Position numbers and translations under genes: made by a program | Virus record (IMG/VR): IMGVR_UViG_3300028886_001681 | Span: 64,001 to 128,000 of that record | DNA: 64,000 nucleotides | Source: a virus | Lineage: Duplodnaviria; Caudoviricetes | Direction: 5' to 3' (one strand) | Notes under the pieces: model-generated | Told to the model about the DNA's origin: nothing | The model's database searches: none | The model's input: only the letters and a program-made list of their open reading frames with translations | Part shown: positions 1-63,027 of the stretch, in pieces | How positions within the stretch are numbered: position 1 is the first letter of the stretch | How the letters are laid out: each line of letters opens with the position of its first letter

Positions 1-406
1 ATTTGTAGTCGGATTCTAGTCCGTCAAGTTTCGCCAATTTTTTCTCTATTGAATTTTTGGACTTGTCGAACGAAGCCTTCGCTTTCTTGGTTTTGTTTTT
101 CGTGGATTCGTCAATTTTTTCGTTTTGCTCTTTGGTTAGCGTTTTCTTATGGTTGAGTTTAATCGTGACCACTTTAGCGCAATCCATGTATTGATTCTTG
201 AACTGTTTGTCGGTCAGATTGCTCCAATCTCTCTTTTGAATTTCTTCCGCAAGCAAAGATGTGCCGAAATAAGTTCTGAATGTTTTTGCTGTTGCGAACT
301 CATATTTATTTTTTATTGTTTCCAATAACGAATCGTCAATTTCAAATTTATCGACCGATAGCAAGTTCTTCAAGCGTTTTGGTAATTTTGTCATAATTAT
401 AAGCAT
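1..406 (-). CDS. DNA topoisomerase IB, C-terminal part (runs off window start; absent from ORF track)
   Basis: SD TAAGGAGG (420-413), 6 nt, then ATG at 406. The open frame reads MLIIMTKLPKRLKNLL...KYEFATAKTFRTYFGTS...VTIKLNHKKT then a Lys-rich coiled coil. This matches the eukaryotic Topo IB motifs TAKVFRTY and ILCNHQR followed by the linker. Confidence 0.85.
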   Translation of the reverse strand, partial: MLIIMTKLPKRLKNLLSVDKFEIDDSLLETIKNKYEFATAKTFRTYFGTSLLAEEIQKRDWSNLTDKQFKNQYMDCAKVVTIKLNHKKTLTKEQNEKIDESTKNKTKKAKASFDKSKNSIEKKLAKLDGLESDYK

Positions 407-1292
407 ATTTGCCCTCCTTAATATTATTATATACTGTTTGTGTGTATTCGTCAAAATAATTTTTATAAACTTTTATAAAATCATTCCAAGCAATATCAAT
501 GTTAAATTTATTATATAAAAATTGTTGTAATGCTTTATTTGATTTTATTTTTAATTTTACTTTTTCATTTTTAGCGATGTTTTTTTCACCCTTCATGGAA
601 TCACTTCGTATTTTTTTACTTTCTTCAGTGATTCCATTTTTGCGTTTTTCAGAATAAATTTTTTTATCTCCATCGGATAAAGAATCCCAAAACATTTTAT
701 TTTTTTCAGATTTATTTTTCTTTTCTTTTTCATTCCAATGTTTCCCTTTCATTGGATTGATATAATTTTTTTGTTTTGCTAATTTTTTATGAGTTTTGCT
801 TGATTTTTCTTTCAATTCATTTGTCCACATTTCTTTAACTTTTTGTTTATGAAAATCTTTAACTTTTTCAAAGCCATCTCTTTGATGTTGTCTTAATGTA
901 TCGAATTCTTCTTTTGATAAAGATTTATACCATGATTTTGTAGATTGAGATTTTTTTAATTTTTGTTCATCAGTTATATATAAATTATAATTAGATTCCC
1001 CACCTTCGGTCATGTTGTATCCAAAATTTAAATCATTGGAATGAAAAAGTTTAATTAATCTTTTTTCCCAATAATTTAAGTCATAAGTTTCAATTAATAT
1101 TTCAAAAGAAAAATTTTTAACGCCATATTTTCTTATTGCTTTATGAATATAACAATCATCTTTTGAATTTATATGAGAAATCCATCTATTGTGAATATCA
1201 ATTGATTGACCGATATAAACTTTATGATTTATGAGATTTTCAATTTTATAAATTCCACTAATATGATTATTATATATTTTATGTCTACTCAT
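348..1292 (-). CDS. GIY-YIG homing endonuclease (free-standing, Seg-like)
   Basis: SGIYKIENLINHKVYIGQS...R...E...GYN core followed by a basic NUMOD-like tail; very AT-rich. Confidence 0.9.
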   Translation of the reverse strand: MSRHKIYNNHISGIYKIENLINHKVYIGQSIDIHNRWISHINSKDDCYIHKAIRKYGVKNFSFEILIETYDLNYWEKRLIKLFHSNDLNFGYNMTEGGESNYNLYITDEQKLKKSQSTKSWYKSLSKEEFDTLRQHQRDGFEKVKDFHKQKVKEMWTNELKEKSSKTHKKLAKQKNYINPMKGKHWNEKEKKNKSEKNKMFWDSLSDGDKKIYSEKRKNGITEESKKIRSDSMKGEKNIAKNEKVKLKIKSNKALQQFLYNKFNIDIAWNDFIKVYKNYFDEYTQTVYNNIKEGKYAYNYDKITKTLEELAIGR

Positions 1293-2469
1293 TTAAATAA
1301 TCCATTACATTATATTTAACAATCAAACCTATCGCTAATTTAATGTCATTTTCATTTTTAGATAACAATAGTTCGTCAATTTTTATTTTTAAGCATACAT
1401 TATTTAAAAATTCGTTCACATCGTTAGACGATATTTTGTCGAACGCTCTGTCTTTTGGGCTTTTGTCTTTCAAGCATTTTTTCAACGAATCAAAAGCGTC
1501 CTCATCAACTTTCATCGTGTTGTCCATTACCATTGAGTCTTTACCCAAGAAATGCAAACGGACTTTTTTGCTTTCCAACAAAATGATGTTCTCAACTTTA
1601 AGGGTGGACGCTCCGACGACCCCATTGTTCCGTTTGTCCTCGTTGCCCGCTCGTATACCAAATTTAGAGATTATGTAGGCACAACAACCAATTTGCCGTT
1701 TCTTGGCGTTGTCGGACAAGTAAGCGTCTTTTATCGCCTTGGTGACCTTTCTGATGTTTTGTTGCAGAAGCCTAGCATTCTCGAATTTTTCCTCGTCGGA
1801 ATCCGCCTTGAATAAAGACTTGTTGGAAAACCAAATCGCCTTTTGAATCGTGACGCTAGGATTTCCAATCAACCGCTCGGTGTAGGTGGCAATTGAAGAG
1901 GTGTCCTTGAACGACACATCCTTCCATTTGTGAGTTCCGTAATCGCACGGAAACGGATAAGACGAATTGATTGACACATCTTCAGGCATTACATCTTCCA
2001 CAACAAATCCGCTCCATTCGCAAGCACCGCGCCCTATGAATATTCGGCTAGACTCGATTAATGAGTTTCCTATCTCAACCTTCTCTCCGTCAACCAAAGC
2101 GTAGCCGTAGGTTTCCTTCCATTTTTTGTTTTCTTCCGCTATTTCCTTTCTATGTTCTTTATTGTAAAGTTTCTTTTCTTCCGCGTATTTTTCTTTAATC
2201 GCTTTCATTCTTGACAGAACCGTTTCGAAGTCGGACGGAAATTTCAATTCCTTCTGTTCCTTCGTCAGTTCCGTTTTTAATGACTTATAAAAATTCTTTT
2301 GGTAGACATTTTCGCTTTTGTATTTGTCCGCCAAAGTAGACCACATGAAGAGCCATTTCACCGCTCGATATGACAATCTCATTTTATTCTCGTTGGAATA
2401 ATATTCGTCAATGTAGGGTAATTCCTTGGGGAATTTCACGCACCCTTCAATTAATTTGAGTTCTTTCAT
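1285..2469 (-). CDS. DNA topoisomerase IB, N-terminal part (eukaryote-type core)
   Basis: Motifs YGYALVDGEKVEIGN..IE...FIGRG, D.EKFENAR.L, GIRAGNE, VGASTLKVENI and FLGKDS; ends before the TAKxFRTY motif. Confidence 0.9.
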   Translation of the reverse strand: MKELKLIEGCVKFPKELPYIDEYYSNENKMRLSYRAVKWLFMWSTLADKYKSENVYQKNFYKSLKTELTKEQKELKFPSDFETVLSRMKAIKEKYAEEKKLYNKEHRKEIAEENKKWKETYGYALVDGEKVEIGNSLIESSRIFIGRGACEWSGFVVEDVMPEDVSINSSYPFPCDYGTHKWKDVSFKDTSSIATYTERLIGNPSVTIQKAIWFSNKSLFKADSDEEKFENARLLQQNIRKVTKAIKDAYLSDNAKKRQIGCCAYIISKFGIRAGNEDKRNNGVVGASTLKVENIILLESKKVRLHFLGKDSMVMDNTMKVDEDAFDSLKKCLKDKSPKDRAFDKISSNDVNEFLNNVCLKIKIDELLLSKNENDIKLAIGLIVKYNVMDYLNE

Positions 2470-11052: not shown

Positions 11053-11239
11053 ATCATTACTCCATTCATTGTGATTTTTTAAATAGTTATTCCAACCTTT
11101 CGTAAGTTGGTTTCGTAAAATTTTTCATGAAATTGTTGAAAAGAATTTCGATGTGCGCTAATATGCGAAAAACACTAAATGTTGGGTTGAAAACGATAAC
11201 TATTGTTAGTCCGACACTACATACAGAGAGGTAAAAATC

Positions 11240-12046
11240 ATGAAGGTAAGAAAAAGAGACGGAAGATTTGCGAATTTCAACGAATCAAAAATTGCGAACG
11301 CCATTAAATTGGCGTCTGAAAATTCAAAAAGCGACAACAAAATAACAGACGAACAAATAAAAAACACCCTTACTTTTGTAAAGTTATCTATTGAAGGTAA
11401 AGATGAGGTTAGTGTCGATGACATTCATGACTTGGTTGAAAAATCTTTGAAAAAAGAAAACAAGGATGTCGCCAAGTCATACATCGAATACAGAAAAAAC
11501 CGAGAACTTGACAGATTTAGAAATCTTGAAATTACAAAAAGAATTTTTGAAAAATTGAACGCGACGAATGTCATGAATCAAAACGCAAACCTCGACGAAT
11601 TTTCGTTCGGAGGAAGAAAGGGCGAAGCGGATTCCGCATTGTTGAAGGAGTTAGCCTTGAACTATTTGATTTCTCCCAAATTCGCCAAAAACCACAATAA
11701 CAATAGAATTTATATACACGACCTAGACTCTTATTTTGTCGGAATGCATAACTGTTTATCGCTTCCCATTGACGATTTGTTAAGAAACGGAATGAAAACT
11801 AGACAAGTTTTCATTAGACCCGCCAACAGTTTGTCGACCGCAATGCAACTTGTCGCAGTGGCGATTCAATTACAATCTTTGCAACAGTTCGGAGGTGTGG
11901 CGGTAACTCACATCGATTGGACTATGGTTCCTTACATTCGAAAATCGTTTTTCAAGCATTATAATGATGGCCTTAAATACGCGGAAGGCAAATCGGATAA
12001 AGAAATTGAAAAAATCGACAATGGGATTTTAGAAAAAAGTAAGTGA
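11240..12046 (+). CDS. nrdD: anaerobic ribonucleotide reductase NrdD, N-terminal fragment
   Basis: ATP cone (VRKRDGR...F..SKI), NQNAN, IYIHDLD, HNC, QQFGG. Confidence 0.92.
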   Translation: MKVRKRDGRFANFNESKIANAIKLASENSKSDNKITDEQIKNTLTFVKLSIEGKDEVSVDDIHDLVEKSLKKENKDVAKSYIEYRKNRELDRFRNLEITKRIFEKLNATNVMNQNANLDEFSFGGRKGEADSALLKELALNYLISPKFAKNHNNNRIYIHDLDSYFVGMHNCLSLPIDDLLRNGMKTRQVFIRPANSLSTAMQLVAVAIQLQSLQQFGGVAVTHIDWTMVPYIRKSFFKHYNDGLKYAEGKSDKEIEKIDNGILEKSK

Positions 12047-12074
12047 TTTCCCAATCGGATTAACTATTTGTATT

Positions 12075-13409
12075 ATGAAAGAAACATTGATAGAAATATT
12101 TAAGAAAAAAGGCATTCTCAATAAAAATAACGGACGAAAATTCTGTTATAAAAATTATTGGGACGACGAATGCGAATCGTTGTGGGGAAAATATTCTTCT
12201 AATTATAGAAGTAATGATGAAGCGTGGTATTGCTTGTCTAAAAATGTAGAACCTCCGAAATGTCCATTGTGTGATAAGTTATGTAGATTTGTGGGCGGAA
12301 AGCGAGGTTATAAAATAACTTGCGAAACTTGTGACCCAAATAAAGTTCCGTCTAAATTAAAACATTTTTCCAAGACTATTTCTAAAAGAACAGAAGAAGA
12401 AAAAAGGAAAATCTTTGAAAAAAGAAAACAAACTAATTTAGAATTATACGGAGATGAAAATTTTACATTGTATGGCTCTAAATCTTTCAAAGAAAACATG
12501 TTGAATAAATATGGCAATGAAAATTACTCTAATCACGAAAAAGCAAAAGAAACTAGTATCGAACGATATGGTGTGGATTGCAATTTTAAAAGGGAAGGAT
12601 TTCAACAATATTCTGCGAATAAAAAACGAGAACTATACGGCAACGCCTCTAATTATGAAAAAACCATGAAAACCAACATGAAGAGGTATGGTGTTCCCCA
12701 CATAGGACAATGTAGAGAAATAATAAATAAAAATAATCTCGAAAAACAAGAAAAATATGATAAATTCGAAATTGAAAACGATTGCACATCGAGGAGTAAA
12801 TTAAAAAAATTATACGGTGTAGGATGGTGGTCTCTCGGTATAGAATATCTTGAATACATGGGGCATTATTTTGTACCTAATGAATTTTTAAAAGATATAA
12901 TAGAATATTCTAGCGAAGGTACGCACACCAACAGTTATATTTCTAAACGAGAAGTTGAGCTTAGAAATTACATTAAAGAAATTTATGATGGTGAAATTCT
13001 CAACAATGTGACCAATGTCGTAAAAAATAACAATCATAGATATTTTGAATTAGATTTGTATTTGCCTCGATTAAAAATTGCATTTGATTTTGACGGAATG
13101 TATTGGCATTCCATAAAATTTAAAGATAAATATTATCATCAAAGAAAAAGTGTATGTTGTTTGGAGCAAGGGGTTAGATTGGCTCATATACAAGAAGATG
13201 AATGGGTGAATAATCGTGAGGTTTTGTGCGATAAAATAAGACAATTAATTTTTGAAAACAAAACATTTAATGATGGTTGTTTCCCACCTTCGTTGAACGA
13301 TTATAATTTTTCTGAACCTAGAAAGATTATGATTGATAAATTTGGTAAAAAAACACTTGACGAAAGCCAGTGTAATTTAATATATTATGATACAGGAGTT
13401 ATTTTATGA
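12075..13409 (+). CDS. free-standing Vsr-like endonuclease with (K/R)YG repeats, inserted in nrdD
   Basis: CPLC, repeated T..ERYG units, ELDLY....IAFDFDGMYWHS...IQEDEW. Confidence 0.75.
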   Translation: MKETLIEIFKKKGILNKNNGRKFCYKNYWDDECESLWGKYSSNYRSNDEAWYCLSKNVEPPKCPLCDKLCRFVGGKRGYKITCETCDPNKVPSKLKHFSKTISKRTEEEKRKIFEKRKQTNLELYGDENFTLYGSKSFKENMLNKYGNENYSNHEKAKETSIERYGVDCNFKREGFQQYSANKKRELYGNASNYEKTMKTNMKRYGVPHIGQCREIINKNNLEKQEKYDKFEIENDCTSRSKLKKLYGVGWWSLGIEYLEYMGHYFVPNEFLKDIIEYSSEGTHTNSYISKREVELRNYIKEIYDGEILNNVTNVVKNNNHRYFELDLYLPRLKIAFDFDGMYWHSIKFKDKYYHQRKSVCCLEQGVRLAHIQEDEWVNNREVLCDKIRQLIFENKTFNDGCFPPSLNDYNFSEPRKIMIDKFGKKTLDESQCNLIYYDTGVIL

Positions 13410-13558
13410 GAGATGTGATTGATGTGTCCATTGATGACGAAAAGTACAAAAAGCATAAAAAAGCGTATCAATACGCCATGGATATGCTACAAAAAGAAGT
13501 TCACCAATCGATAGAAGGATTGTTGCACAATTTAAATTCATTGCAAAGCAGGTCGGGT
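13406..13558 (+). CDS. nrdD: NrdD C-terminal fragment, exon 1 (absent from ORF track)
   Basis: SD GGAG and an ATGA overlap with the endonuclease stop; 51 codons MRDVID...AYQYAMDMLQKEVHQSIEGLLHNLNSLQSRSG. Confidence 0.85.
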
Positions 13559-13819
13559 AGACTTTAGATTGCCCCATTCATCAGTAATGATGAATTGATA
13601 ATTCGGTAAAATCGGTGAAGACTAAATCATTAAGATATGTTGATACCGAGATAAGCATTCGAATTGCGAAAGGTCGAATGACATTGTAGAGCATAGAAGG
13701 TGAATAAATATAATCCTTCCACGAGTACCGAACATCCAAATATTTGGATGAAAATGTATGCCGAACTTATGAGAAATCATAAGAAGTATGGATAAAAAGC
13801 CATACGATAACAAATATTG
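13559..13819 (+). ncRNA. group I intron (261 nt, no ORF)
   Basis: 5' exon ends in U (GGGT) and the intron ends in G. IGS GATTGCCC pairs with the 5' exon GGGT and the 3' exon AATC. Splicing restores SRSG|NQLPFSSINYG. Confidence 0.88.
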
Positions 13820-15664
13820 AATCAATTGCCGTTTTCGTCCATAAATTACGGAACTTGCACATTGAAAGAAGGTCGTTTACTAACCAAAGAAATTTTGGAA
13901 TGCACAATCGATGGTGTTGGAAATCACGCGACTTCCATTTTCCCATGCCAGATTTTTCAATTGATGGACGGTGTAAATGTGAAAGAAAGCGACCCTAATT
14001 ATGATTTATTCAGATTAGCAATCGAATGTACATCAAAACGCTTATATCCTAATTATGTAAACTGTGATTGGAGCAACGACCAAGGATATAATAAAGATGA
14101 CCCTAGAACTTATCCTAGTACAATGGGTGCGGTTCGTGGAGACGAAATTGTTTCTATTAAAATCAACGATGTTGAATTTAATGATATTTCGATTAAAAAA
14201 GCAATAGAAATGATTAATGCATATACTTCTAATGTCGAATGGATTAACAATGAATCTGATAAAATTGGATATACAAAACATAAACGAGTAAAAGATTGTC
14301 AGATTAAGTGTCAATCAAAATGGGTTAGAATTCTCAACATCGAATTCAACGACAAATCATCCCCCTTAAAATTATACGAAGTCACTTTTGATAAAAACGA
14401 AACCGAGCAAACTCTCCATATCACGGAAGACCATCCTTTACACACTAGCAGAGGAAGAGTCGAGGCTAGGGATTTGAAGGTCGGAGATGTGATTTATGAC
14501 TCCATTAGCGGTTACGGTTACAAAATCGTTTCCGTAAAAGAAACTAACGAAAAATGCGACACTTACGACTTCACTACAGAAACAGACATGTTTGATTTGA
14601 GCGGAATCGTCTCTCATAACTGTAGGACTTATAGCAGTAGCGACATAAACGCGGAGTCTGCGGAATTGTCGCATATTAAGGACGGACGAGGAAACATAAC
14701 ACCTGCGACTATAGTTTTGCCAACAATAGCCATGGAATCAAAAAAGAAAATGAAAGACGATACTGATGAAAAGGTTTTGATTGAACTTTTCATGAAAAAT
14801 CTCGAAGACGCGATAATCGACTGTAAAGACGAATTGATTGAAAGATTCAATTACATTTGCTCGCAAAATCCAAAATCCGCTTCCTTCATGTATGAAAACG
14901 GAACATTCTACGGATATAAAGAAAGCGAGGGAATTCGTTCAGCGTTGAAACACGGCAGTTTGGCGGTGGGACAAATAGGCTTGGCGGAAACTTTGCAAAT
15001 TTTAATTGGAACAGACCAATGCACGAAAAAAGGAATGGAGTTGGCAAAGAGAATTGAGGAATTATTCAAGCGAAAGTGTTCTGAGTTTAAGAACGAATAT
15101 AAATTGAATTTTGGAGTTTATTACACACCTGCGGAAGGATTATCAAAGACTTCATTCGATAAATTTGTGAAAAAATACGGTCTTATTGAAAATGTCACTG
15201 CATATAAAGATGAAAACGGAAAATTACAACCTAGAGGATATTTCACGAATTCGATTCATGTTCCTGTTTGGAAGGAAATTTCTCCGTTTGAAAAAATAGA
15301 CATAGAATCCCAATTAACGAATTATTCTTCGGCAGGTTGCATTACTTATGTTGAAATCGGAGACAACGCTTCCAACAACTTGAAAGCCCTCGAAGAACTC
15401 GTATTGTACGCCAAGTCGAAAGATGTTCCATATTTCGCATTGAATCTTCCGTTGTCGCATTGCAAAAAATGCGGTTGCGACGAAAACATTGGTTTTGAGG
15501 AAAGTTGTCCTAAATGTGGAGCGGATAAAGATGAAATTGAACATCTCGCTCGCGTGACAGGTTATCTCTCCACGGACTACAAGCATTTTAATTTAGGAAA
15601 GCAACACGAAGTCAAAGACCGATATGTTCATGTGAATAAATTGTCGTCATGGAAACAAAAATGA
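13820..15664 (+). CDS. nrdD: NrdD C-terminal fragment, exon 2 (contains an intein)
   Basis: NQLPFSSINYG, IFP, MG..CRT, GRGN, TPAEGL, YFTNS.H, CxxC...CPKCG and the glycyl-radical motif RVTGYL. Confidence 0.92.
   Translation, partial: NQLPFSSINYGTCTLKEGRLLTKEILECTIDGVGNHATSIFPCQIFQLMDGVNVKESDPNYDLFRLAIECTSKRLYPNYVNCDWSNDQGYNKDDPRTYPSTMGAVRGDEIVSIKINDVEFNDISIKKAIEMINAYTSNVEWINNESDKIGYTKHKRVKDCQIKCQSKWVRILNIEFNDKSSPLKLYEVTFDKNETEQTLHITEDHPLHTSRGRVEARDLKVGDVIYDSISGYGYKIVSVKETNEKCDTYDFTTETDMFDLSGIVSHNCRTYSSSDINAESAELSHIKDGRGNITPATIVLPTIAMESKKKMKDDTDEKVLIELFMKNLEDAIIDCKDELIERFNYICSQNPKSASFMYENGTFYGYKESEGIRSALKHGSLAVGQIGLAETLQILIGTDQCTKKGMELAKRIEELFKRKCSEFKNEYKLNFGVYYTPAEGLSKTSFDKFVKKYGLIENVTAYKDENGKLQPRGYFTNSIHVPVWKEISPFEKIDIESQLTNYSSAGCITYVEIGDNASNNLKALEELVLYAKSKDVPYFALNLPLSHCKKCGCDENIGFEESCPKCGADKDEIEHLARVTGYLSTDYKHFNLGKQHEVKDRYVHVNKLSSWKQK
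14129..14620 (+). mobile_element. mini-intein (164 aa) starting with Ala
   Basis: Interrupts STMG|CRT; block B TEDHP, block F TYDF, C-terminal SHN followed by Cys. Confidence 0.88.
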
Positions 15665-16164
15665 GATACGCGAATATCATAGAAAACGACATAGTTGACT
15701 CCATAAGTGGAATCAATGTGTCGTTTTGGTGTCAAGGTTGCAATTTCCATTGTCCTCATTGTCATAATCCGCAAACATGGAATTTGTGTGGCGGTCAAGA
15801 ACTCCCATCAAATTACAAAGAAATCGTTTTGGAATTGCTTCATAAAAACGGAATCAATCGAGGACTGTCTATTTTAGGCGGAGAACCTTTGATTGAGCAA
15901 AATCGTCAACTTGTTTCTGATTTGGTGAATTATGTCAAAGATAAATCTCCTACCACAATCATATATCTGTGGAGCGGATACACTTTGGAAGAGTTGAGAA
16001 AAATGAACGATGCTAGCGTGAACTTCATTCTGTCAACAATCGATTACCTAATCGACGGTCGCTACGAGGACGGCAAGAAGGACTTGTCGCTAAAGTTGAG
16101 AGGAAGTTCCAACCAAAATGTCTATCGACGAGTGAACGGCAAATTGAAGAAAATCGAAATTTAA
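15661..16164 (+). CDS. nrdG: anaerobic RNR activating enzyme
   Basis: CNFHCPHCHNP, LGGEP, DGRY, LRGSSNQ. Confidence 0.93.
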   Translation: MRYANIIENDIVDSISGINVSFWCQGCNFHCPHCHNPQTWNLCGGQELPSNYKEIVLELLHKNGINRGLSILGGEPLIEQNRQLVSDLVNYVKDKSPTTIIYLWSGYTLEELRKMNDASVNFILSTIDYLIDGRYEDGKKDLSLKLRGSSNQNVYRRVNGKLKKIEI

Positions 16165-16169
16165 ATGAA

Positions 16170-16197
16170 AAAAACGCTCGGAAATTCGAGCGTTTTT
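16170..16197. terminator. bidirectional terminator
   Basis: AAAACGCTCG...CGAGCGTTTT between convergent genes. Confidence 0.75.
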
Positions 16198-57119: not shown

Positions 57120-58742
57120 ATGAAAGAAACTGAAAGTAAGAAAAAGGAATTGTACTCGCTCAAGGAACTGCACAAGATGAAAGTGTATCCTACTCTCTTG
57201 GAATACCTTGGAATTGAAACTGTGAAGAAAGGCCGAGCGACATATATAACCCAAGAGTCCTTGGATAAAGCGTTAAAATTCAAGGAGGAGAATCCTAACA
57301 CGAGAGTTTTGTTGCAAAAATTCGCCTTCATGAAAAAATACGGAGTCGAGAACCCCCAACAAGCCAAAGAAATCCGAGAAAAGACGCTCTCCACAGTCAA
57401 GGAAAGGTACGGAGTCGAGAACACTTCGCAATCCCAAGAGGTCAAGGACAAGAAGGCTGACACTCTACGAAAGCGTTACGGAGAAAATGTGTCCAACCCC
57501 ATGGATTGCGAGGAATTCGTTTTTAAAGTGAAGGAGAATTGGAAAAACAAGAGTCGAGAGGAGATGAATGCTCTGACCGAAAAGACGAAGAGGACATCGA
57601 TGCTCAAATACGGTTTCGACAACGCTATGAAAAACAAAAATGTAGCAGACAAGTCGAAAAACAATAAAAAGGAAAACAAACTCAAGGAACTTGAAAAATA
57701 CAAAGATTATGTTCCCATAAAAGAAATTTGCATGATTGTCTCAAGGTGTTATGACAGAGTCTTGGATGTAATCAAACTTTTGGGATTGGAGATTATAGAA
57801 GTCAAGGATTCCCACTTAGTGAAAAAATCCGATTTAGATAAAATCAAAAAATATTTTGAAGTTGCGTCGGATTACGCTACTTCAAACGAAGAAAAAGAGT
57901 TGTTGGAATTCATCGAAACATTAACCGACGAAAAAATTATCTCCAACGATAAATTGACGATAAATCCATACGAATTAGACATTTTCATTCCTTCAAAAAA
58001 TTTGGCGTTCGAATTTGACGGAATTTACTACCACTCCAACCAATTCAAAGACAAATTTTACCATTACGACAAAACCAAGTTGTGCGAGAAAAAAGGAATT
58101 AGATTAATTCATGTCTTTGAGGACGACTGGCGATTCAAGCGGAACATAGTGAAATCGATGATAAATGCTTCGTTGGGAATTTACGAACGGAAAATATTCG
58201 CTCGCGAATGTGAAGTCAAAAACATTTTCAATTTTGAATACCGAGATTTTATGAACGAAAACCATCTGCAAGGATACGCTTCCGCTAGTCGTTATTTAGG
58301 ATTGTATTATCGCGGAGAATTGGTTCAGTGCGTGGGAATAAAATATAACGGAATCAACAAGACTTGGGAATTGAACCGCATGGCCACTAAACTCAACAAT
58401 CAAGTCGTGGGAGGCTTTAGCAAACTATTGAAACACGCGATAGAGCGATTCAACATCAAGGAAATGACTTCCTATGTCTTCAAGTCTTGGTTCGACGGAA
58501 AATCTTACGAGGCTTGCGGATTCAAATTCGACAAGGAATGCCCTCCGACTTATTGGTATGTCGTGAATGGAATGAAAACAAACCGAATGAATTGGCAAAA
58601 GAAATTCATCAAGGAGAAATTCAACAAGGGTGAATTGAGGCATTACGACGAATTAGAAAGCGAGTTTGACAACATGGCGAAAAACGGATTCAATTGGATT
58701 TGGGATAGCGGTAAAATAAGATTAAGGTATAAATCGGAATGA
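57120..58742 (+). CDS. Hef-like putative homing endonuclease
   Basis: YGVEN repeats, ELDI....AFEFDGIYYHS, IFAR.CEV, NHLQG, VVGGFSKL, WDSG. Confidence 0.75.
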   Translation: MKETESKKKELYSLKELHKMKVYPTLLEYLGIETVKKGRATYITQESLDKALKFKEENPNTRVLLQKFAFMKKYGVENPQQAKEIREKTLSTVKERYGVENTSQSQEVKDKKADTLRKRYGENVSNPMDCEEFVFKVKENWKNKSREEMNALTEKTKRTSMLKYGFDNAMKNKNVADKSKNNKKENKLKELEKYKDYVPIKEICMIVSRCYDRVLDVIKLLGLEIIEVKDSHLVKKSDLDKIKKYFEVASDYATSNEEKELLEFIETLTDEKIISNDKLTINPYELDIFIPSKNLAFEFDGIYYHSNQFKDKFYHYDKTKLCEKKGIRLIHVFEDDWRFKRNIVKSMINASLGIYERKIFARECEVKNIFNFEYRDFMNENHLQGYASASRYLGLYYRGELVQCVGIKYNGINKTWELNRMATKLNNQVVGGFSKLLKHAIERFNIKEMTSYVFKSWFDGKSYEACGFKFDKECPPTYWYVVNGMKTNRMNWQKKFIKEKFNKGELRHYDELESEFDNMAKNGFNWIWDSGKIRLRYKSE

Positions 58743-61467: not shown

Positions 61468-63027
61468 TTAATCCGATTCATATCTTACTTTAATCGTTCC
61501 GCAATCATATATCCTATAATATCCCAATTTTTCCATATTTCGCTCTTCAGTCAAAGATTCGTCGAATTCCTTTGGAAACTTTTTAGCGATATTCTTCTTG
61601 GTGAAATTCATTCTATAAAACCTTTCAAACTTTTTTGTATAATAATAATTCGGTTTGTTTGCCGATATTTTTTTAAATCCGCTAGACAAATAGCCATCGC
61701 CGTTGAACAACCGTCTATCGACATAAGAAATGCAATCTTTGCCATAATGTTTCATCAATTTACTAAATCCGCCGACAACTTGAGTGTTTAATTTCGTGAC
61801 CATTCTAATTAACTCGTTTTCATTTTTAGTAAATCTCGACTTTCCGAAACCAACGCATTGAACCAATTCTCCTTCATAAAACAATCCCAATCTTTCAGAA
61901 GAATTACACTCTCCTTGAATATGATTTTCGTCACAGAAGTTTCTAAATTCACGGTCGCCAATTTCTTTCACCTCGCATTTTCTAGCGAATATTTTCCGCT
62001 CGTAAATTCCCAATGACGAACTTATTATCGATTTGACGATATTTTGCTTGCATTTCCATTCGTCCTCAAATACATGAATCAATCTTATTCCTTTTTTCTC
62101 ACACATGATTGTTTTGTCGAGATGATAATTTTTATTTTTCTGATGTTCCGTGGAGTGCCAATATAATCCGTCAAATTCTATGGCGACCTTTTTATTAGGA
62201 ATATAAACATCCAATTCTTTCGGAAAAATCGTTTTTCTGTCGTTTTCTATAATTTCGTCACAATAAATGGATTTTACAAATTTTACCAAATCTCGCTCGT
62301 CTTTTGAACTGTGCGAATAATTTTTACCGATTTTATCCAATTGTTCATTTATTAAAGAAATGTCGCGATTTTTAATATATGGAACATTTTCAAACATAAG
62401 CAATTTTACATTCGTTTGTTCCAAACAATAATTCAATGTGCTCGCGGAATGCTTTACGCTCGGTTCAAATATTTCCGAAAACATGGAACAATCGTTTTCT
62501 TCGCAAAATTTTTCGGAAGCGTTTTTAAATCTTTCCTTCCTTCGCCTTCCCATTTCCACATTATAATCTTCTATGCTCTTGTATCTTTCGACGATTGTTT
62601 CCTTCGCCTTGTCGGAATTTATGAAATCGCAAGTTCCGTAGCGCTTCATGTTGGTTTTGTTTCTTTTCTCAATCCGTTCCGCAGAATTTGCCTTGCTCGT
62701 CTCCGACAATTTCTTTCTAATTTCTTCAAGTTGGGATTTGTTTTCCACTCCGTATTTTAATAACGAGATTGCCTTTGATTTCTCGGCTTTGGACAAGTTC
62801 GCGTATTTCACGATTTTATCCGCCGTTTCTTGGGAGTACATTGCGACTTCTTTTTTCGCCTTGGGATGGTAGGCTTTCTTCGATTCCAAAAAAGCGGAGT
62901 ATTTCCTTATGGACTTAATTTGCGAGCGAGGAATGTTGTTATCGCCTAATATTTCATTGAGAGTTTCATAGTTTTGAGAAATTAAATTGTCATATTTTTC
63001 CGATTTATTGTTTTCCATAAGAAGCAC
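61468..63027 (-). CDS. Hef-like putative homing endonuclease (paralogue of 57120-58742)
   Basis: Same motif set: AIEFDGLYWHS, IFARKCEV, VVGGFSKL, YDCG. Confidence 0.75.
   Translation of the reverse strand: MLLMENNKSEKYDNLISQNYETLNEILGDNNIPRSQIKSIRKYSAFLESKKAYHPKAKKEVAMYSQETADKIVKYANLSKAEKSKAISLLKYGVENKSQLEEIRKKLSETSKANSAERIEKRNKTNMKRYGTCDFINSDKAKETIVERYKSIEDYNVEMGRRRKERFKNASEKFCEENDCSMFSEIFEPSVKHSASTLNYCLEQTNVKLLMFENVPYIKNRDISLINEQLDKIGKNYSHSSKDERDLVKFVKSIYCDEIIENDRKTIFPKELDVYIPNKKVAIEFDGLYWHSTEHQKNKNYHLDKTIMCEKKGIRLIHVFEDEWKCKQNIVKSIISSSLGIYERKIFARKCEVKEIGDREFRNFCDENHIQGECNSSERLGLFYEGELVQCVGFGKSRFTKNENELIRMVTKLNTQVVGGFSKLMKHYGKDCISYVDRRLFNGDGYLSSGFKKISANKPNYYYTKKFERFYRMNFTKKNIAKKFPKEFDESLTEERNMEKLGYYRIYDCGTIKVRYESD

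What the first reader, a model, noticed from the sequence alone, without database searches (positions are those of the whole stretch)
11240..15664. nrdD carries three kinds of intervening element and is probably made as two chains
Seen: (i) the N-fragment ends ...ILEKSK-stop; (ii) a free-standing endonuclease follows with its own late motif; (iii) the C-fragment restarts at 13406 with an SD and an ATGA overlap; (iv) a 261-nt group I intron sits at SRSG|NQ; (v) a mini-intein sits at MG|CR. Only 28 nt separate the N-fragment from the endonuclease, so no intron surrounds it. Known: class III RNR needs the HNC cysteine, the MGCR cysteine and the glycyl radical; here the first lies on chain A and the other two on chain B. 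Inference: active enzyme requires RNA splicing, protein splicing and heterodimer assembly. With Topo IB, two enzymes in this window are fractured in the same way.
Basis: partly seen in the sequence, partly recalled or inferred. Interest (0 to 1): 0.85.

Follow-up and report, generated by a model that had tools for sequence, protein, structure and literature searches.

The report
Phage nrdD split, intron, intein
A phage gene for the anaerobic ribonucleotide reductase is interrupted three different ways (a nuclease gene that cuts it into two proteins, a self-splicing RNA intron and a protein intein) yet is still under strong selection, and the same two-protein split turns out to be common in gut-phage metagenomes.

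Summary
All five observations are confirmed at the stated coordinates. nrdD consists of:
- chain A, 11240-12046;
- a free-standing PD-(D/E)XK-type homing endonuclease gene (HEG), 12075-13409;
- chain B exon 1, 13406-13558;
- a 261-nt ORF-less group I intron, 13559-13819;
- exon 2, 13820-15664, holding a 164-aa Ala1 mini-intein at 14129-14620.

Alleles lacking the intron or the intein give exact boundaries. The intron fold, including the P3/P7 pseudoknot, is supported by covariation.

No splicing element can surround the HEG. The insert is fully coding, and the two fragment ends together reproduce the native linker of unsplit homologues, so there is no split intein.

The two-chain reading is well supported:
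- The same linker split recurs in many metagenomic phages (52-98% identity), with the HEG and without it.
- Between the window and a relative that shares all three insertions, dN/dS is 0.025-0.076 for every part.

New lead: all six HEG-bearing alleles have the SRSG|NQ site altered, four by this intron and two by an Asn-to-Asp/Cys change. This suggests the HEG targets that site and the intron gives immunity (collaborative homing).

Each element type is known, and fragmented phage nrdD genes are published. This is a new variant of a known kind.

The parts
11197..11203 (+). TAACTAT motif 36 nt upstream of the nrdD start (candidate phage promoter element)
   Evidence: YAACTAT occurs 38 times in the window against 14.8+-3.5 expected. 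Function untested.
11240..12046 (+). nrdD chain A: ATP-cone plus the N-terminal part of the NrdD barrel, including the HNC cysteine; 268 aa plus stop
   Evidence: Pfam ATP-cone 1.4e-19 and NRDD 9.7e-29. Aligns to solved NrdD 8p23 residues 9-244. The tail is conserved among 22 similar fragments.
12061..12067 (+). TAACTAT motif 7 nt before the HEG start codon
   Evidence: Conserved in L020.
12075..13409 (+). Free-standing homing endonuclease gene (444 aa): Zn-ribbon/DUF7487 repeats plus a C-terminal PD-(D/E)XK (Vsr/DUF559-like) nuclease domain
   Evidence: PHROG 3339 at 2e-36. DUF7487. REase_MTES_1575 at 0.0065 here and 5e-11 in the L003 paralogue. dN/dS 0.071 against L020.
13394..13398 (+). Shine-Dalgarno AGGAG for chain B, embedded in the HEG's last codons (the YDTGV motif)
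   Evidence: Sequence. The same arrangement occurs in L022 and L025.
13406..13558 (+). nrdD chain B, exon 1 (51 codons, M...LNSLQSRSG); its ATG overlaps the HEG stop (ATGA)
13559..13819 (+). ORF-less group I intron (IA-like), 261 nt: P1 with U.G, P2-P9.1, P3/P7 pseudoknot, P10, terminal G
   Evidence: Intron-less allele in L003. Same family as the Lactobacillus phage JCL1032 terL intron, whose CDS is annotated as joined. Covariation: 45 of 68 pairs carry double-sided changes against 28.8+-2.7 in shuffles. Fold z-score -4.3.
13820..14128 (+). Chain B exon 2, N-extein part (NQLPF...PSTMG)
14129..14620 (+). Mini-intein, 164 aa: Ala1, block B T-E-D-H, C-terminal HN, +1 Cys (the MGCR active-site cysteine)
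   Evidence: Exactly absent from L022 and L026. Best PDB hit is the NrdJ-1 intein at E=0.0035. Weak NCBIfam and Pfam hits are to intein models only. Relatives carry a GIY-YIG domain in the same insert. dN/dS 0.058-0.076.
14621..15664 (+). Chain B C-extein: CRTY..., Zn-ribbon cysteines and the glycyl-radical motif RVTGY; includes the stop
   Evidence: Pfam NRDD 2.7e-92 and Gly_radical 9.7e-11. NCBIfam NrdD models.
15649..16164 (+). nrdG activase (radical SAM), overlapping the nrdD end by 16 nt
   Evidence: Pfam Fer4_12 9.3e-36 and Radical_SAM.
16170..16197 (.). Bidirectional terminator-like hairpin. It is the first such site after nrdD-A, so the HEG, nrdD-B and nrdG are probably co-transcribed.

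Best explanation
This phage's class III ribonucleotide reductase gene is intact in function but needs three separate repair mechanisms.

1. A free-standing PD-(D/E)XK-type homing endonuclease gene sits in a variable surface linker. It cuts nrdD into two cistrons. Chain A (268 aa) carries the ATP-cone and the HNC cysteine. Chain B is translated from its own SD/ATG, which overlaps the HEG stop. Nothing rejoins the two chains. They assemble non-covalently into the NrdD barrel, so the active site is shared between two polypeptides.
2. The chain B mRNA must lose a 261-nt ORF-less group I intron between the SRSG and NQ codons.
3. The chain B precursor (665 aa) must excise a 164-aa mini-intein that begins with Ala. 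This probably follows the class-2 mechanism, with direct attack by Cys+1. That cysteine is the thiyl-radical cysteine of the MGCR loop. The mature chain B is 501 aa.

Shown here: the anatomy, the exact boundaries, family memberships, covariation in the intron, purifying selection on every part, and recurrence of the split elsewhere.

Inferred: splicing activity, assembly and enzyme function.

Secondary hypothesis, about 50% likely: the HEG cleaves HEG-less nrdD alleles at or near the SRSG|NQ site, 153 nt downstream of its own position. The intron, or in other phages a substitution of the Asn codon, protects the carrier genome. HEG and intron would then be inherited as one unit (collaborative homing).
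For: Boundaries:
- L003 (86% identical) is continuous across both the HEG site and the intron site.
- L022 and L026 lack the intein exactly.

Intron:
- It belongs to the same family as the JCL1032 terL intron.
- 89.2% of pair cells are paired against 71.7% in shuffles. 45 of 68 pairs carry compensatory changes. P3 and P6 each show 7 of 7.

No joining element around the HEG:
- The insert is coding, with dN/dS 0.071.
- In L022 and L025 the chain A stop overlaps the HEG start as TAATG.
- Unsplit homologues such as P0009, P0029 and P0032 show that tail plus head equals the native linker, with no extra residues.

Selection after the split:
- Window against L020, which has the same three insertions: dN/dS is N 0.025, C1 0.055, N-extein 0.046, intein 0.076, C-extein 0.046, with dS 0.9-2.9.

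Recurrence:
- About 28 of the 120 best N-terminal hits end in the same linker.
- With a HEG: L020/L021, L022/L023, L025, L029, L031.
- Split without a HEG: L024 (16-nt spacer with GAGG and an ATG) and L026 (the protein is seen on 14 contigs).

Assembly model:
- The natural L026 pair scores ipSAE 0.90 against a best control of 0.00. That mark was reached by 51 of 78 solved complexes and 2 of 108 mismatched pairs. Runs agree in at least 86% of contacts and the partner pLDDT is 87.
- Single-chain NrdD structures are solved, so this pass shows likeness to them, not that these chains bind.

HEG-target lead:
- The 4 HEG+ alleles with the intron, plus L029 (SRAG-D-QLPF) and L031 (SRSG-C-QLPF), make 6 of 6 with an altered site.
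- 42 of 43 HEG-less read-through ORFs have NQ.
- L003 carries a second, independent pair: a HEG followed 99 nt later by an ORF-less intron, at another nrdD site.
Against: - No RNA or protein data exist.
- Rfam models did not detect the intron.
- The intein lacks an N-terminal Cys/Ser. Its family matches are weak, and its AlphaFold model was poor (pLDDT 51.8). Its splicing competence therefore rests on conserved blocks and on selection.
- dS is close to saturation, so the dN/dS values are approximate.
- For the HEG-target hypothesis, only about five independent lineages are available.
- Roughly a third of HEG-less alleles also carry an intron within 3 codons of this site, so adjacency alone is weak evidence.
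Confidence: 0.8

Rival explanations
1. The HEG insertion killed nrdD. The fragments are a decaying pseudogene carried along with still-selfish elements.
For: The gene is interrupted three times and there is no expression evidence. Some published phage RNR genes are thought to be degenerating (Dwivedi 2013, PMC3653736).
Against: - No frameshift or stop occurs in any piece.
- dN/dS is 0.025-0.055 for both halves between two lineages that both carry the split.
- All catalytic motifs are retained: HNC, MGCR, the Zn-ribbon and RVTGY.
- nrdG is retained and overlaps the nrdD end.
- The same split persists down to 52% identity, including after HEG loss.
Confidence: 0.07
2. Chains A and B are covalently joined after all. 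The route would be an unrecognised intron around the HEG, a split intein that trans-splices, or ribosomal bypassing or frameshifting.
For: - Chain A and chain B are in the same reading frame (11240 and 13406 both leave remainder 2 on division by 3).
- 'Fractured genes' with a Vsr-like HEG between split-intein halves exist (PMC2677866).
- Rfam also missed the genuine intron, so a negative Rfam scan is weak evidence.
Against: - The 1335-nt insert is a selected ORF with only a 28-nt spacer here, and no spacer at all in L022 and L025. That leaves no room for a ribozyme core.
- The tail and head are native linker sequence with no intein blocks.
- HEG-less splits have their own SD and ATG.
- No repeats flank the insert.
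Confidence: 0.04
3. On the origin only: the linker split came first, as a stable two-gene nrdD, and the HEG later settled in the intergenic gap. In that case the HEG did not create the split.
For: - HEG-less two-ORF forms exist (L024, L026).
- Free-standing HEGs usually occupy intergenic sites.
- The split and read-through states are interleaved on the tree, needing at least 14 changes among 104 rows (quick tree).
Against: - Unsplit alleles with the same conserved linker exist (P0009, P0029, P0032).
- The cut is clean: stop codon, HEG, then start codon.
- In L003 the same HEG family creates an identical architecture at a second site, where the window is continuous. So this HEG family does split genes.
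Confidence: 0.25
4. The HEG and the intron are independent neighbours in a hot spot. The HEG's target lies elsewhere, for example at its own insertion site, and the intron is not its immunity.
For: - The stretch YHNLNTLQSRSGNQLPF holds at least three intron insertion points in HEG-less alleles.
- T4's nrdD intron lies about 10 codons upstream of the equivalent site.
- The sample of HEG+ alleles is small.
Against: - 6 of 6 HEG+ alleles have the SRSG|NQ site altered, and 2 of 2 intron-less HEG+ alleles replace the Asn. Only 1 of 43 HEG-less alleles does so, which is about p=0.003 by my own Fisher count.
- A second HEG-plus-ORF-less-intron pair occurs in L003.
- There is precedent in T4 mobE / nrdB intron trans-homing (PMC2790892).
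Confidence: 0.45

Closest known systems
Aeromonas phage Aeh1 nrdA split by mobE ('genes-in-pieces' RNR; Crona et al. 2010, PMC3045599; Friedrich et al. 2007, from my own knowledge)
   Same: An RNR large-subunit gene is cut into two ORFs by a free-standing homing endonuclease. There is no RNA or protein splicing at the cut. The active site is shared between two chains that assemble non-covalently.
   Different: Aeh1 is class Ia with an HNH MobE. This case is class III (a glycyl-radical enzyme) with a PD-(D/E)XK/Vsr-like HEG. In Aeh1, new tails created by the insertion are essential. Here the cut is clean, in the native linker, with no new tails. This gene also carries an intron and an intein.
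Phage T4 nrdD (sunY) group IA intron with I-TevII
   Same: Same host gene, and a group I intron in the same conserved stretch of the barrel.
   Different: T4's intron carries a GIY-YIG ORF. Its exon-1 frame closes at codon 181, about 10 codons upstream of the equivalent of SRSG|NQ. The window's intron is ORF-less and belongs to a family seen in Gram-positive phages.
Intron plus intein in one phage RNR gene: SPbeta bnrdE and Lactococcus phage 949 nrdD; Clostridium phage c-st nrdD intein (Dwivedi et al. 2013, PMC3653736)
   Same: An RNA-splicing element and a protein-splicing element in the same RNR gene. nrdD is the most often interrupted phage RNR gene.
   Different: None of those cases adds a HEG-made two-chain split. 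I did not compare the intein insertion sites.
Jug (jumbo gut) phage nrdD fragmentation (Sci Adv 2026, PMC12880540)
   Same: nrdD is fragmented in 95 of 104 genomes by group I introns, endonucleases and intein-like inserts. One junction (230-aa and 91-aa fragments) shows no RNA-splicing evidence.
   Different: That phage lineage is different (360-402 kb, Bacteroides hosts). The paper does not interpret the unspliced junction as a two-chain enzyme and reports no HEG/intron target relationship.
Collaborative or trans homing: T4 mobE mobilising the nrdB intron (Wilson & Edgell 2009, PMC2790892); cyanophage F-CphI / psbA intron (Zeng et al. 2009, from my own knowledge)
   Same: A free-standing HEG sits next to an intron that has no working HEG of its own. 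The intron site is the presumed cleavage target, and the two are co-inherited.
   Different: Here the HEG sits inside the target gene and splits it. Cleavage has not been tested.
'Fractured genes' (Dassa et al. 2009, PMC2677866)
   Same: A phage DNA-metabolism gene is broken in two with a free-standing Vsr-related HEG between the halves.
   Different: Fractured genes are defined by split-intein halves flanking the HEG. None is present here.
Class 2 inteins (Methanocaldococcus KlbA type; from my own knowledge)
   Same: Ala at position 1, Asp at F:4, C-terminal HN and Cys+1.
   Different: The mechanism is not tested here, and sequence similarity to characterised inteins is weak.

Membership tests
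Group I intron | P1 helix in which the last exon base, U, pairs with G; the internal guide sequence also pairs with the 3' exon (P10); terminal G | tested here: met
   Exon GGGU pairs with intron GCCC (U.G at the splice site). GAUU pairs with 3'-exon AAUC. The intron ends in G. Conserved in L020, L022 and L025.
Group I intron | Conserved core P3-P9 with the P3/P7 pseudoknot, supported by covariation | tested here: met
   P3, P7 and P7.1 are 100% paired and P4/5 is 98.9% paired. 45 of 68 pairs carry double-sided changes against 28.8+-2.7 in shuffles and 11-19 when the partner is slid.
Group I intron | Removal restores an uninterrupted conserved reading frame | tested here: met
   The intron-less alleles L003, L024, L026 and L001 read SRSGNQLPF.
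Group I intron | Match to the curated Rfam group I model | tested here: not met
   No hit at E<=10. The td-like intron of L003 also gave no hit, so the scan is insensitive to these phage introns.
Group I intron | GTP-dependent self-splicing | not testable with these tools
   Requires in vitro transcription and a splicing assay.
Intein | In-frame insertion absent from orthologues, at a conserved site, followed by Cys, Ser or Thr | tested here: met
   STMG|164 aa|CRT in the window, against STMGCRT in L022 and L026.
Intein | Splicing blocks: block B TxxH, block F Asp, block G His-Asn | tested here: met
   ITEDHPL, TYDF and IVSHN are present and invariant among the window, L003 and L020. They align to the NrdJ-1 intein 8ubs.
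Intein | N-terminal Cys or Ser nucleophile (class 1) | tested here: not met
   Residue 1 is Ala in the window and in all relatives seen, including the GIY-YIG-bearing forms. This fits class 2. The class 3 cysteine at F:4 is absent.
Intein | Hint fold | tested here: inconclusive
   The AlphaFold model has pLDDT 51.8 and was not searched. Pfam PT-HINT (1.2e-4) and Intein_splicing (7e-3) are below their cut-offs. TIGR01443 scores 14.1 bits against a cut-off of 15.6.
Class III RNR (NrdD) | NRDD barrel, ATP-cone, two active-site cysteines, C-terminal Zn site, glycyl-radical motif and an adjacent NrdG activase | tested here: met
   HNC is on chain A; MGCR, CxxC...CxxC and RVTGY are on chain B; nrdG is at 15649-16164.
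Free-standing homing endonuclease (PD-(D/E)XK / Vsr-like) | Nuclease family membership and a retained catalytic motif | tested here: met
   PHROG 3339 at 2e-36. The ELD...DFDG.YWH motif is shared with the L003 paralogue, which matches REase_MTES_1575 at 5e-11. The window copy alone reaches only E=0.0065.
Free-standing homing endonuclease (PD-(D/E)XK / Vsr-like) | Present or absent among close relatives at a fixed site | tested here: met
   The window has it and L003 does not. P0008 is split and P0017 is not. At least 14 state changes are needed on the tree.
Free-standing homing endonuclease (PD-(D/E)XK / Vsr-like) | Site-specific cleavage of the HEG-less allele | not testable with these tools
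   Requires a biochemical assay.
Fractured gene (split intein + HEG) | N- and C-terminal split-intein halves on the two fragments | tested here: not met
   The fragment ends equal the native linker of unsplit homologues, with no extra residues.
Genes-in-pieces RNR (Aeh1 type) | Two ORFs separated by a HEG with no splicing element, and an active enzyme made from two chains | tested here: inconclusive
   The architecture is met. Activity is not testable here. Support comes from selection and from the complex model, 0.90 against 0.00.
Collaborative homing | The HEG's target is the intron insertion site, and the intron protects the carrier genome | tested here: inconclusive
   6 of 6 HEG+ alleles have the site altered against 1 of 43 substitutions in HEG-less alleles. 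Cleavage is not testable here.

The most novel reading that the evidence does not exclude
A two-chain glycyl-radical ribonucleotide reductase is a stable and widespread enzyme form in animal-gut phages. It would be created by a PD-(D/E)XK homing endonuclease that inserts in a surface linker, and it would persist after the endonuclease is lost. The endonuclease and the ORF-less group I intron 153 nt downstream would form one composite mobile module. In that module the endonuclease cuts the intron-less SRSG|NQ site. The intron, or an Asn-to-Asp/Cys change, would be the immunity determinant. This would be a natural intermediate on the route from a free-standing HEG to a mobile intron.
Probability: 0.4. 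Interest if true: 0.7.

Novelty: new variant of a known kind. Interest (0 to 1): 0.55.

Why it matters
- One essential gene displays, side by side, three known ways to tolerate selfish insertions: RNA splicing, protein splicing and subunit assembly. Purifying selection acts on all parts.
- It extends the 'genes-in-pieces' solution from class Ia to a class III glycyl-radical RNR, and the split proves to be common and long-lived in metagenomic phages.
- It offers a compact experimental system. Alleles exist that are HEG+ with the intron, HEG+ with a target substitution, HEG-less but split, and unsplit. These could test collaborative homing and how mobile introns arise.
- It is also a caution for annotation. 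These nrdD pieces are called as separate or 'fragment' genes in databases.

Tried and rejected
- Rfam scans of the region, of the intron alone and of the L003 intron gave no group I hit. I judged the scan insensitive rather than the result negative.
- Megablast of the locus against phage records gave no match.
- tblastn of the intein against phage records gave no match.
- The PDB sequence search for the HEG gave nothing meaningful.
- The search for related loci with the HEG in viral contigs gave no confirmed relative.
- The AlphaFold model of the intein, built from a 3-row alignment, had pLDDT 51.8. It was too poor for a fold search and I dropped it.
- My first hand assignment of the intron paired P3 with the CCGAA after the UAUGC strand, and I looked for P7 after P9.1. 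Three different registers were needed across the sequences, so I rejected it. The correct P3' (UACCGAA) lies between P7.1 and P8, and GCAUA/UAUGC is P7. One search confirms this.
- There are no direct or inverted repeats bracketing the HEG, so there is no sign of transposition or site-specific excision.
- nhmmer with the intron-family profile found no second copy in the 160-kb genome.
- blastn of the L003 second intron found only short matches in unannotated phage regions.
- The careful tree did not finish, so the quick tree was used.

Full report
**Observation.**

- An ORF at 11240-12046 (268 aa) ends ...ILEKSK-TGA.
- After a 28-nt spacer, a 444-aa ORF runs from 12075 to 13409.
- An ATG at 13406 overlaps that ORF's stop (ATGA). 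AGGAG lies 7 nt upstream of it.
- The new frame runs to ...LNSLQSRSG at 13558.
- After 261 nt, the frame NQLPFSS... resumes at 13820 and runs to 15664.
- nrdG overlaps the end of it (15649-16164).

Pfam places an ATP-cone and NRDD profile positions 2-136 on the first ORF. It places NRDD 124-154 on the 51-codon piece. It places NRDD up to position 562 (the best stretch covers 258-562), plus Gly_radical, on the last ORF. That last ORF also gives two sub-threshold Hint/intein hits in its middle.

**What the pieces are: comparators.**

A 218-kb viral contig (L003, 86% protein identity) carries the same nrdD as one frame across both the HEG site and the intron site (...SRSGNQLPF...). It has the same 164-aa insert at STMG|...|CRT. 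This fixes the intron at 13559-13819.

Two more distant relatives (L022, L026) read STMGCRT. This fixes the intein at 14129-14620.

**The intron.**

Rfam gave no hit. Other evidence is strong.
- The RNA folds far better than shuffles (z = -4.3).
- blastn finds a family of related elements in phages of Gram-positive hosts. One is the intron inside the joined terL CDS of Lactobacillus phage JCL1032.
- The same intron sits at the same codon boundary in L020, L022 and L025.

I counted pairs on a 10-sequence alignment using a hand-built structure. The structure has these elements:
- P1 with U.G at the splice site;
- P2 with a GNRA loop;
- P3 UUCGGUA/UACCGAA;
- P4-P6;
- P7 GCAUA/UAUGC;
- P7.1, P8, P9, P9.1;
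- P10 GAUU/AAUC;
- a terminal G.

The results were:
- 89.2% of pair cells are paired, against 71.7% in shuffles.
- 45 of 68 pairs show changes on both sides, against 28.8+-2.7 in shuffles and 11-19 when the partner is slid.
- P3 and P6 are compensatory at every pair.

The element has no ORF of note. It is a genuine ORF-less group I intron with an IA-like P7.1.

T4's own nrdD intron, which carries I-TevII, lies about 10 codons upstream of the equivalent position. Metagenomic relatives show at least three insertion points within YHNLNTLQSRSGNQLPF.

**The intein.**

The insert starts with Ala. It has T-E-D-H (block B), TYDF (block F, Asp at F:4) and IVSHN, followed by Cys. That cysteine is the MGCR active-site cysteine.
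- The best PDB sequence match is the NrdJ-1 intein (E=0.0035, blocks B to G).
- The only NCBIfam hits are intein-containing models, and they are weak.
- Eighty-two database proteins, all NrdDs, carry a homologous insert at the same site.
- Many of them are 1011-aa NrdDs. In these the insert is about 285 aa and encloses a GIY-YIG domain, with the same AVRGDE start and the same ...SGIVSHN|CRT end.

So the window's element is the mini form of that intein family. The Ala1 is a family trait, not a lesion.

The intein evolves under purifying selection (dN/dS 0.058-0.076). The AlphaFold model was too poor to use.

**The endonuclease and the split.**

The 444-aa ORF matches PHROG 3339 'homing endonuclease' (2e-36), DUF7487 and F-LimIII-type HEGs. 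It ends in a Vsr/DUF559-like PD-(D/E)XK domain. It is in a different frame from nrdD.

There is no room for an intron core.
- The whole insert is coding and under selection (dN/dS 0.071 against L020).
- In L022 and L025 the chain A stop and the HEG start overlap as TAATG.

There is no split intein either.
- Chain A's tail (GLKY.E..SDKEIEKI...) is conserved among 22 independent N-fragments.
- In unsplit homologues such as P0009, P0029 and P0032 that tail runs straight into ...IDISI.D..YKK..KAY..., which is chain B's head.
- The length is the same to within one residue.

The cut is therefore clean: stop codon, HEG, start codon, inside a linker that HMMER leaves unaligned between residues 244 and 277 of the solved Prevotella NrdD. 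No repeats flank the insert. No terminator-like site occurs before 16170.

**Is the two-chain enzyme real?**

Three lines of evidence support it.

(a) Selection. L020/L021 (87% identity) share the HEG, the intron and the intein with the window. Between the two, synonymous sites are near saturation (dS 0.9-2.9). dN/dS is 0.025 for chain A, 0.055 for exon 1, 0.046 for the N-extein and 0.046 for the C-extein.

(b) Recurrence. About 28 of the 120 best N-terminal hits end in this linker, at 52-98% identity.
- Loci with a HEG of the same family: L022/L023, L025, L029, L031.
- Loci split without any HEG: L024 (16-nt spacer, GAGG, ATG) and L026 (278-aa and 487-aa ORFs overlapping by 26 nt, the protein seen on 14 contigs).
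- HEG divergence tracks host-gene divergence: 86%, 52% and 40% for the HEG against 87%, 61% and 61% for chain A.
- On a quick tree the split and unsplit states are interleaved, needing at least 14 changes. The element is therefore both old and still turning over.

(c) Complex model. The natural L026 pair scores 0.90 against a best control of 0.00. That mark was reached by 51 of 78 solved complexes and 2 of 108 mismatched pairs. Runs agree in at least 86% of contacts and the partner pLDDT is 87. Single-chain NrdD structures exist, so this shows only that the halves look like a normal NrdD barrel.

No RNA data could be obtained.

**A further lead: the HEG and the intron as one unit.**

L003's nrdD has a second interruption where the window is continuous. 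In order it contains:
- a read-on tail;
- a HEG of the same PHROG family;
- a restart ATG overlapping the HEG stop;
- a 33-codon exon;
- a 292-nt ORF-less intron, bounded by U| and G|, with P1 CACCU/GGGUG and P7 GACUAU/AUAGUC.

This is the same architecture, built from a different HEG copy (27% identity) and a different intron.

At the window's own site the pattern is as follows.
- All four HEG-bearing alleles that have an intron have it at SRSG|NQ.
- The two HEG-bearing alleles without the intron have Asp or Cys in place of the Asn at that exact junction (L029, L031).
- 42 of 43 HEG-less read-through ORFs keep Asn.
- By my own Fisher count this gives about p=0.003.

This fits a HEG that cuts the conserved SRSG|NQ sequence 153 nt from its own insertion site. 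The intron or a substitution would give immunity, as in T4 mobE with the nrdB intron (PMC2790892) and in collaborative homing.

The caveats are:
- only about five independent lineages are available;
- introns are frequent in this hot spot without the HEG;
- there is no cleavage assay.

**Comparison with what is known.**

Each element type is known.
- T4 has an nrdD intron.
- Intron-plus-intein RNR genes are reported for SPbeta and phage 949, and an nrdD intein for c-st (PMC3653736).
- Aeh1 has a HEG-split but active class Ia RNR (PMC3045599).
- Jug phages show widespread nrdD fragmentation, including one junction without splicing evidence (PMC12880540).
- 'Fractured genes' (PMC2677866) differ, because they require split inteins.

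What is new here:
- all three elements in one class III gene;
- a clean, conserved, long-lived linker split of NrdD, with and without the HEG;
- the HEG/intron/target-substitution pattern.

**Verdict.**

This is a new variant of a known kind, of moderate interest.

Noticed in passing
window 2-2469 (- strand): Topoisomerase IB is split by a GIY-YIG ORF. Topoisom_I_N and Topoisom_I profile 2-143 lie on 1285-2469. The GIY-YIG ORF is at 348-1292. Topoisom_I profile 140-225 lies on 2-454. This is a second enzyme in the same phage cut by a free-standing HEG.
   Followed up: partly
L003 8207-9582: The relative's nrdD has a second interruption where the window is continuous: a PHROG 3339 HEG, a restart ATG overlapping its stop, a 33-codon exon and a 292-nt ORF-less td-like group I intron at YYTP|AEGL. 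The architecture matches the window's site, but the HEG copy and the intron family are different.
   Followed up: partly
P0160 and about 40 similar 1011-aa NrdD proteins: The full-size form of this NrdD intein (Ala1 ... SHN|C, about 285 aa) encloses a GIY-YIG nuclease domain. As far as I recall, intein-borne endonucleases are normally LAGLIDADG or HNH, so a GIY-YIG intein may be unusual.
   Followed up: partly
L029 7601-7633; L031 5486-5518: HEG-bearing but intron-less nrdD alleles replace the otherwise near-invariant Asn of SRSG-N-QLPF with Asp or Cys, exactly at the intron insertion site.
   Followed up: partly
window 57120-58742 (+), 61468-63027 (-); genome 61969-62403 (-): Further paralogues of the DUF7487 / PD-(D/E)XK HEG are present in the same genome (tblastn at about 1e-21 for the two window copies and about 1e-9 for the one outside the window; DUF7487). 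Their targets are unknown.
   Followed up: no
window, 38 sites, e.g. 11197, 12061, 34225, 54032: YAACTAT is 2.6-fold over-represented (38 sites against 14.8+-3.5 expected) and often lies just upstream of genes. It is a candidate phage promoter element.
   Followed up: partly
Metagenomic N-terminal NrdD ORFs: The stretch YHNLNTLQSRSGNQLPF is a hot spot. ORFs break after HNL, after SRSG and after SRSGNQL in different phages, so there are at least three intron insertion points within 12 codons. T4's intron lies in the same stretch.
   Followed up: partly
L025 and the Logan contig carrying P0018: Some relatives have nrdD in five or six pieces, with further gaps and a DUF7487 HEG between nrdD and nrdG. 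L026 has an IS605-type OrfB/TnpB gene immediately upstream of nrdD.
   Followed up: no
L003 6760-6850, compared with window 11985-12046 and 13406-13480: Unsplit alleles closest to the split ones (L003 against the window, P0017 against P0008) have a completely different linker sequence, while the rest of the protein is 86-95% identical. This suggests linker replacement by recombination or co-conversion when the HEG is gained or lost.
   Followed up: no
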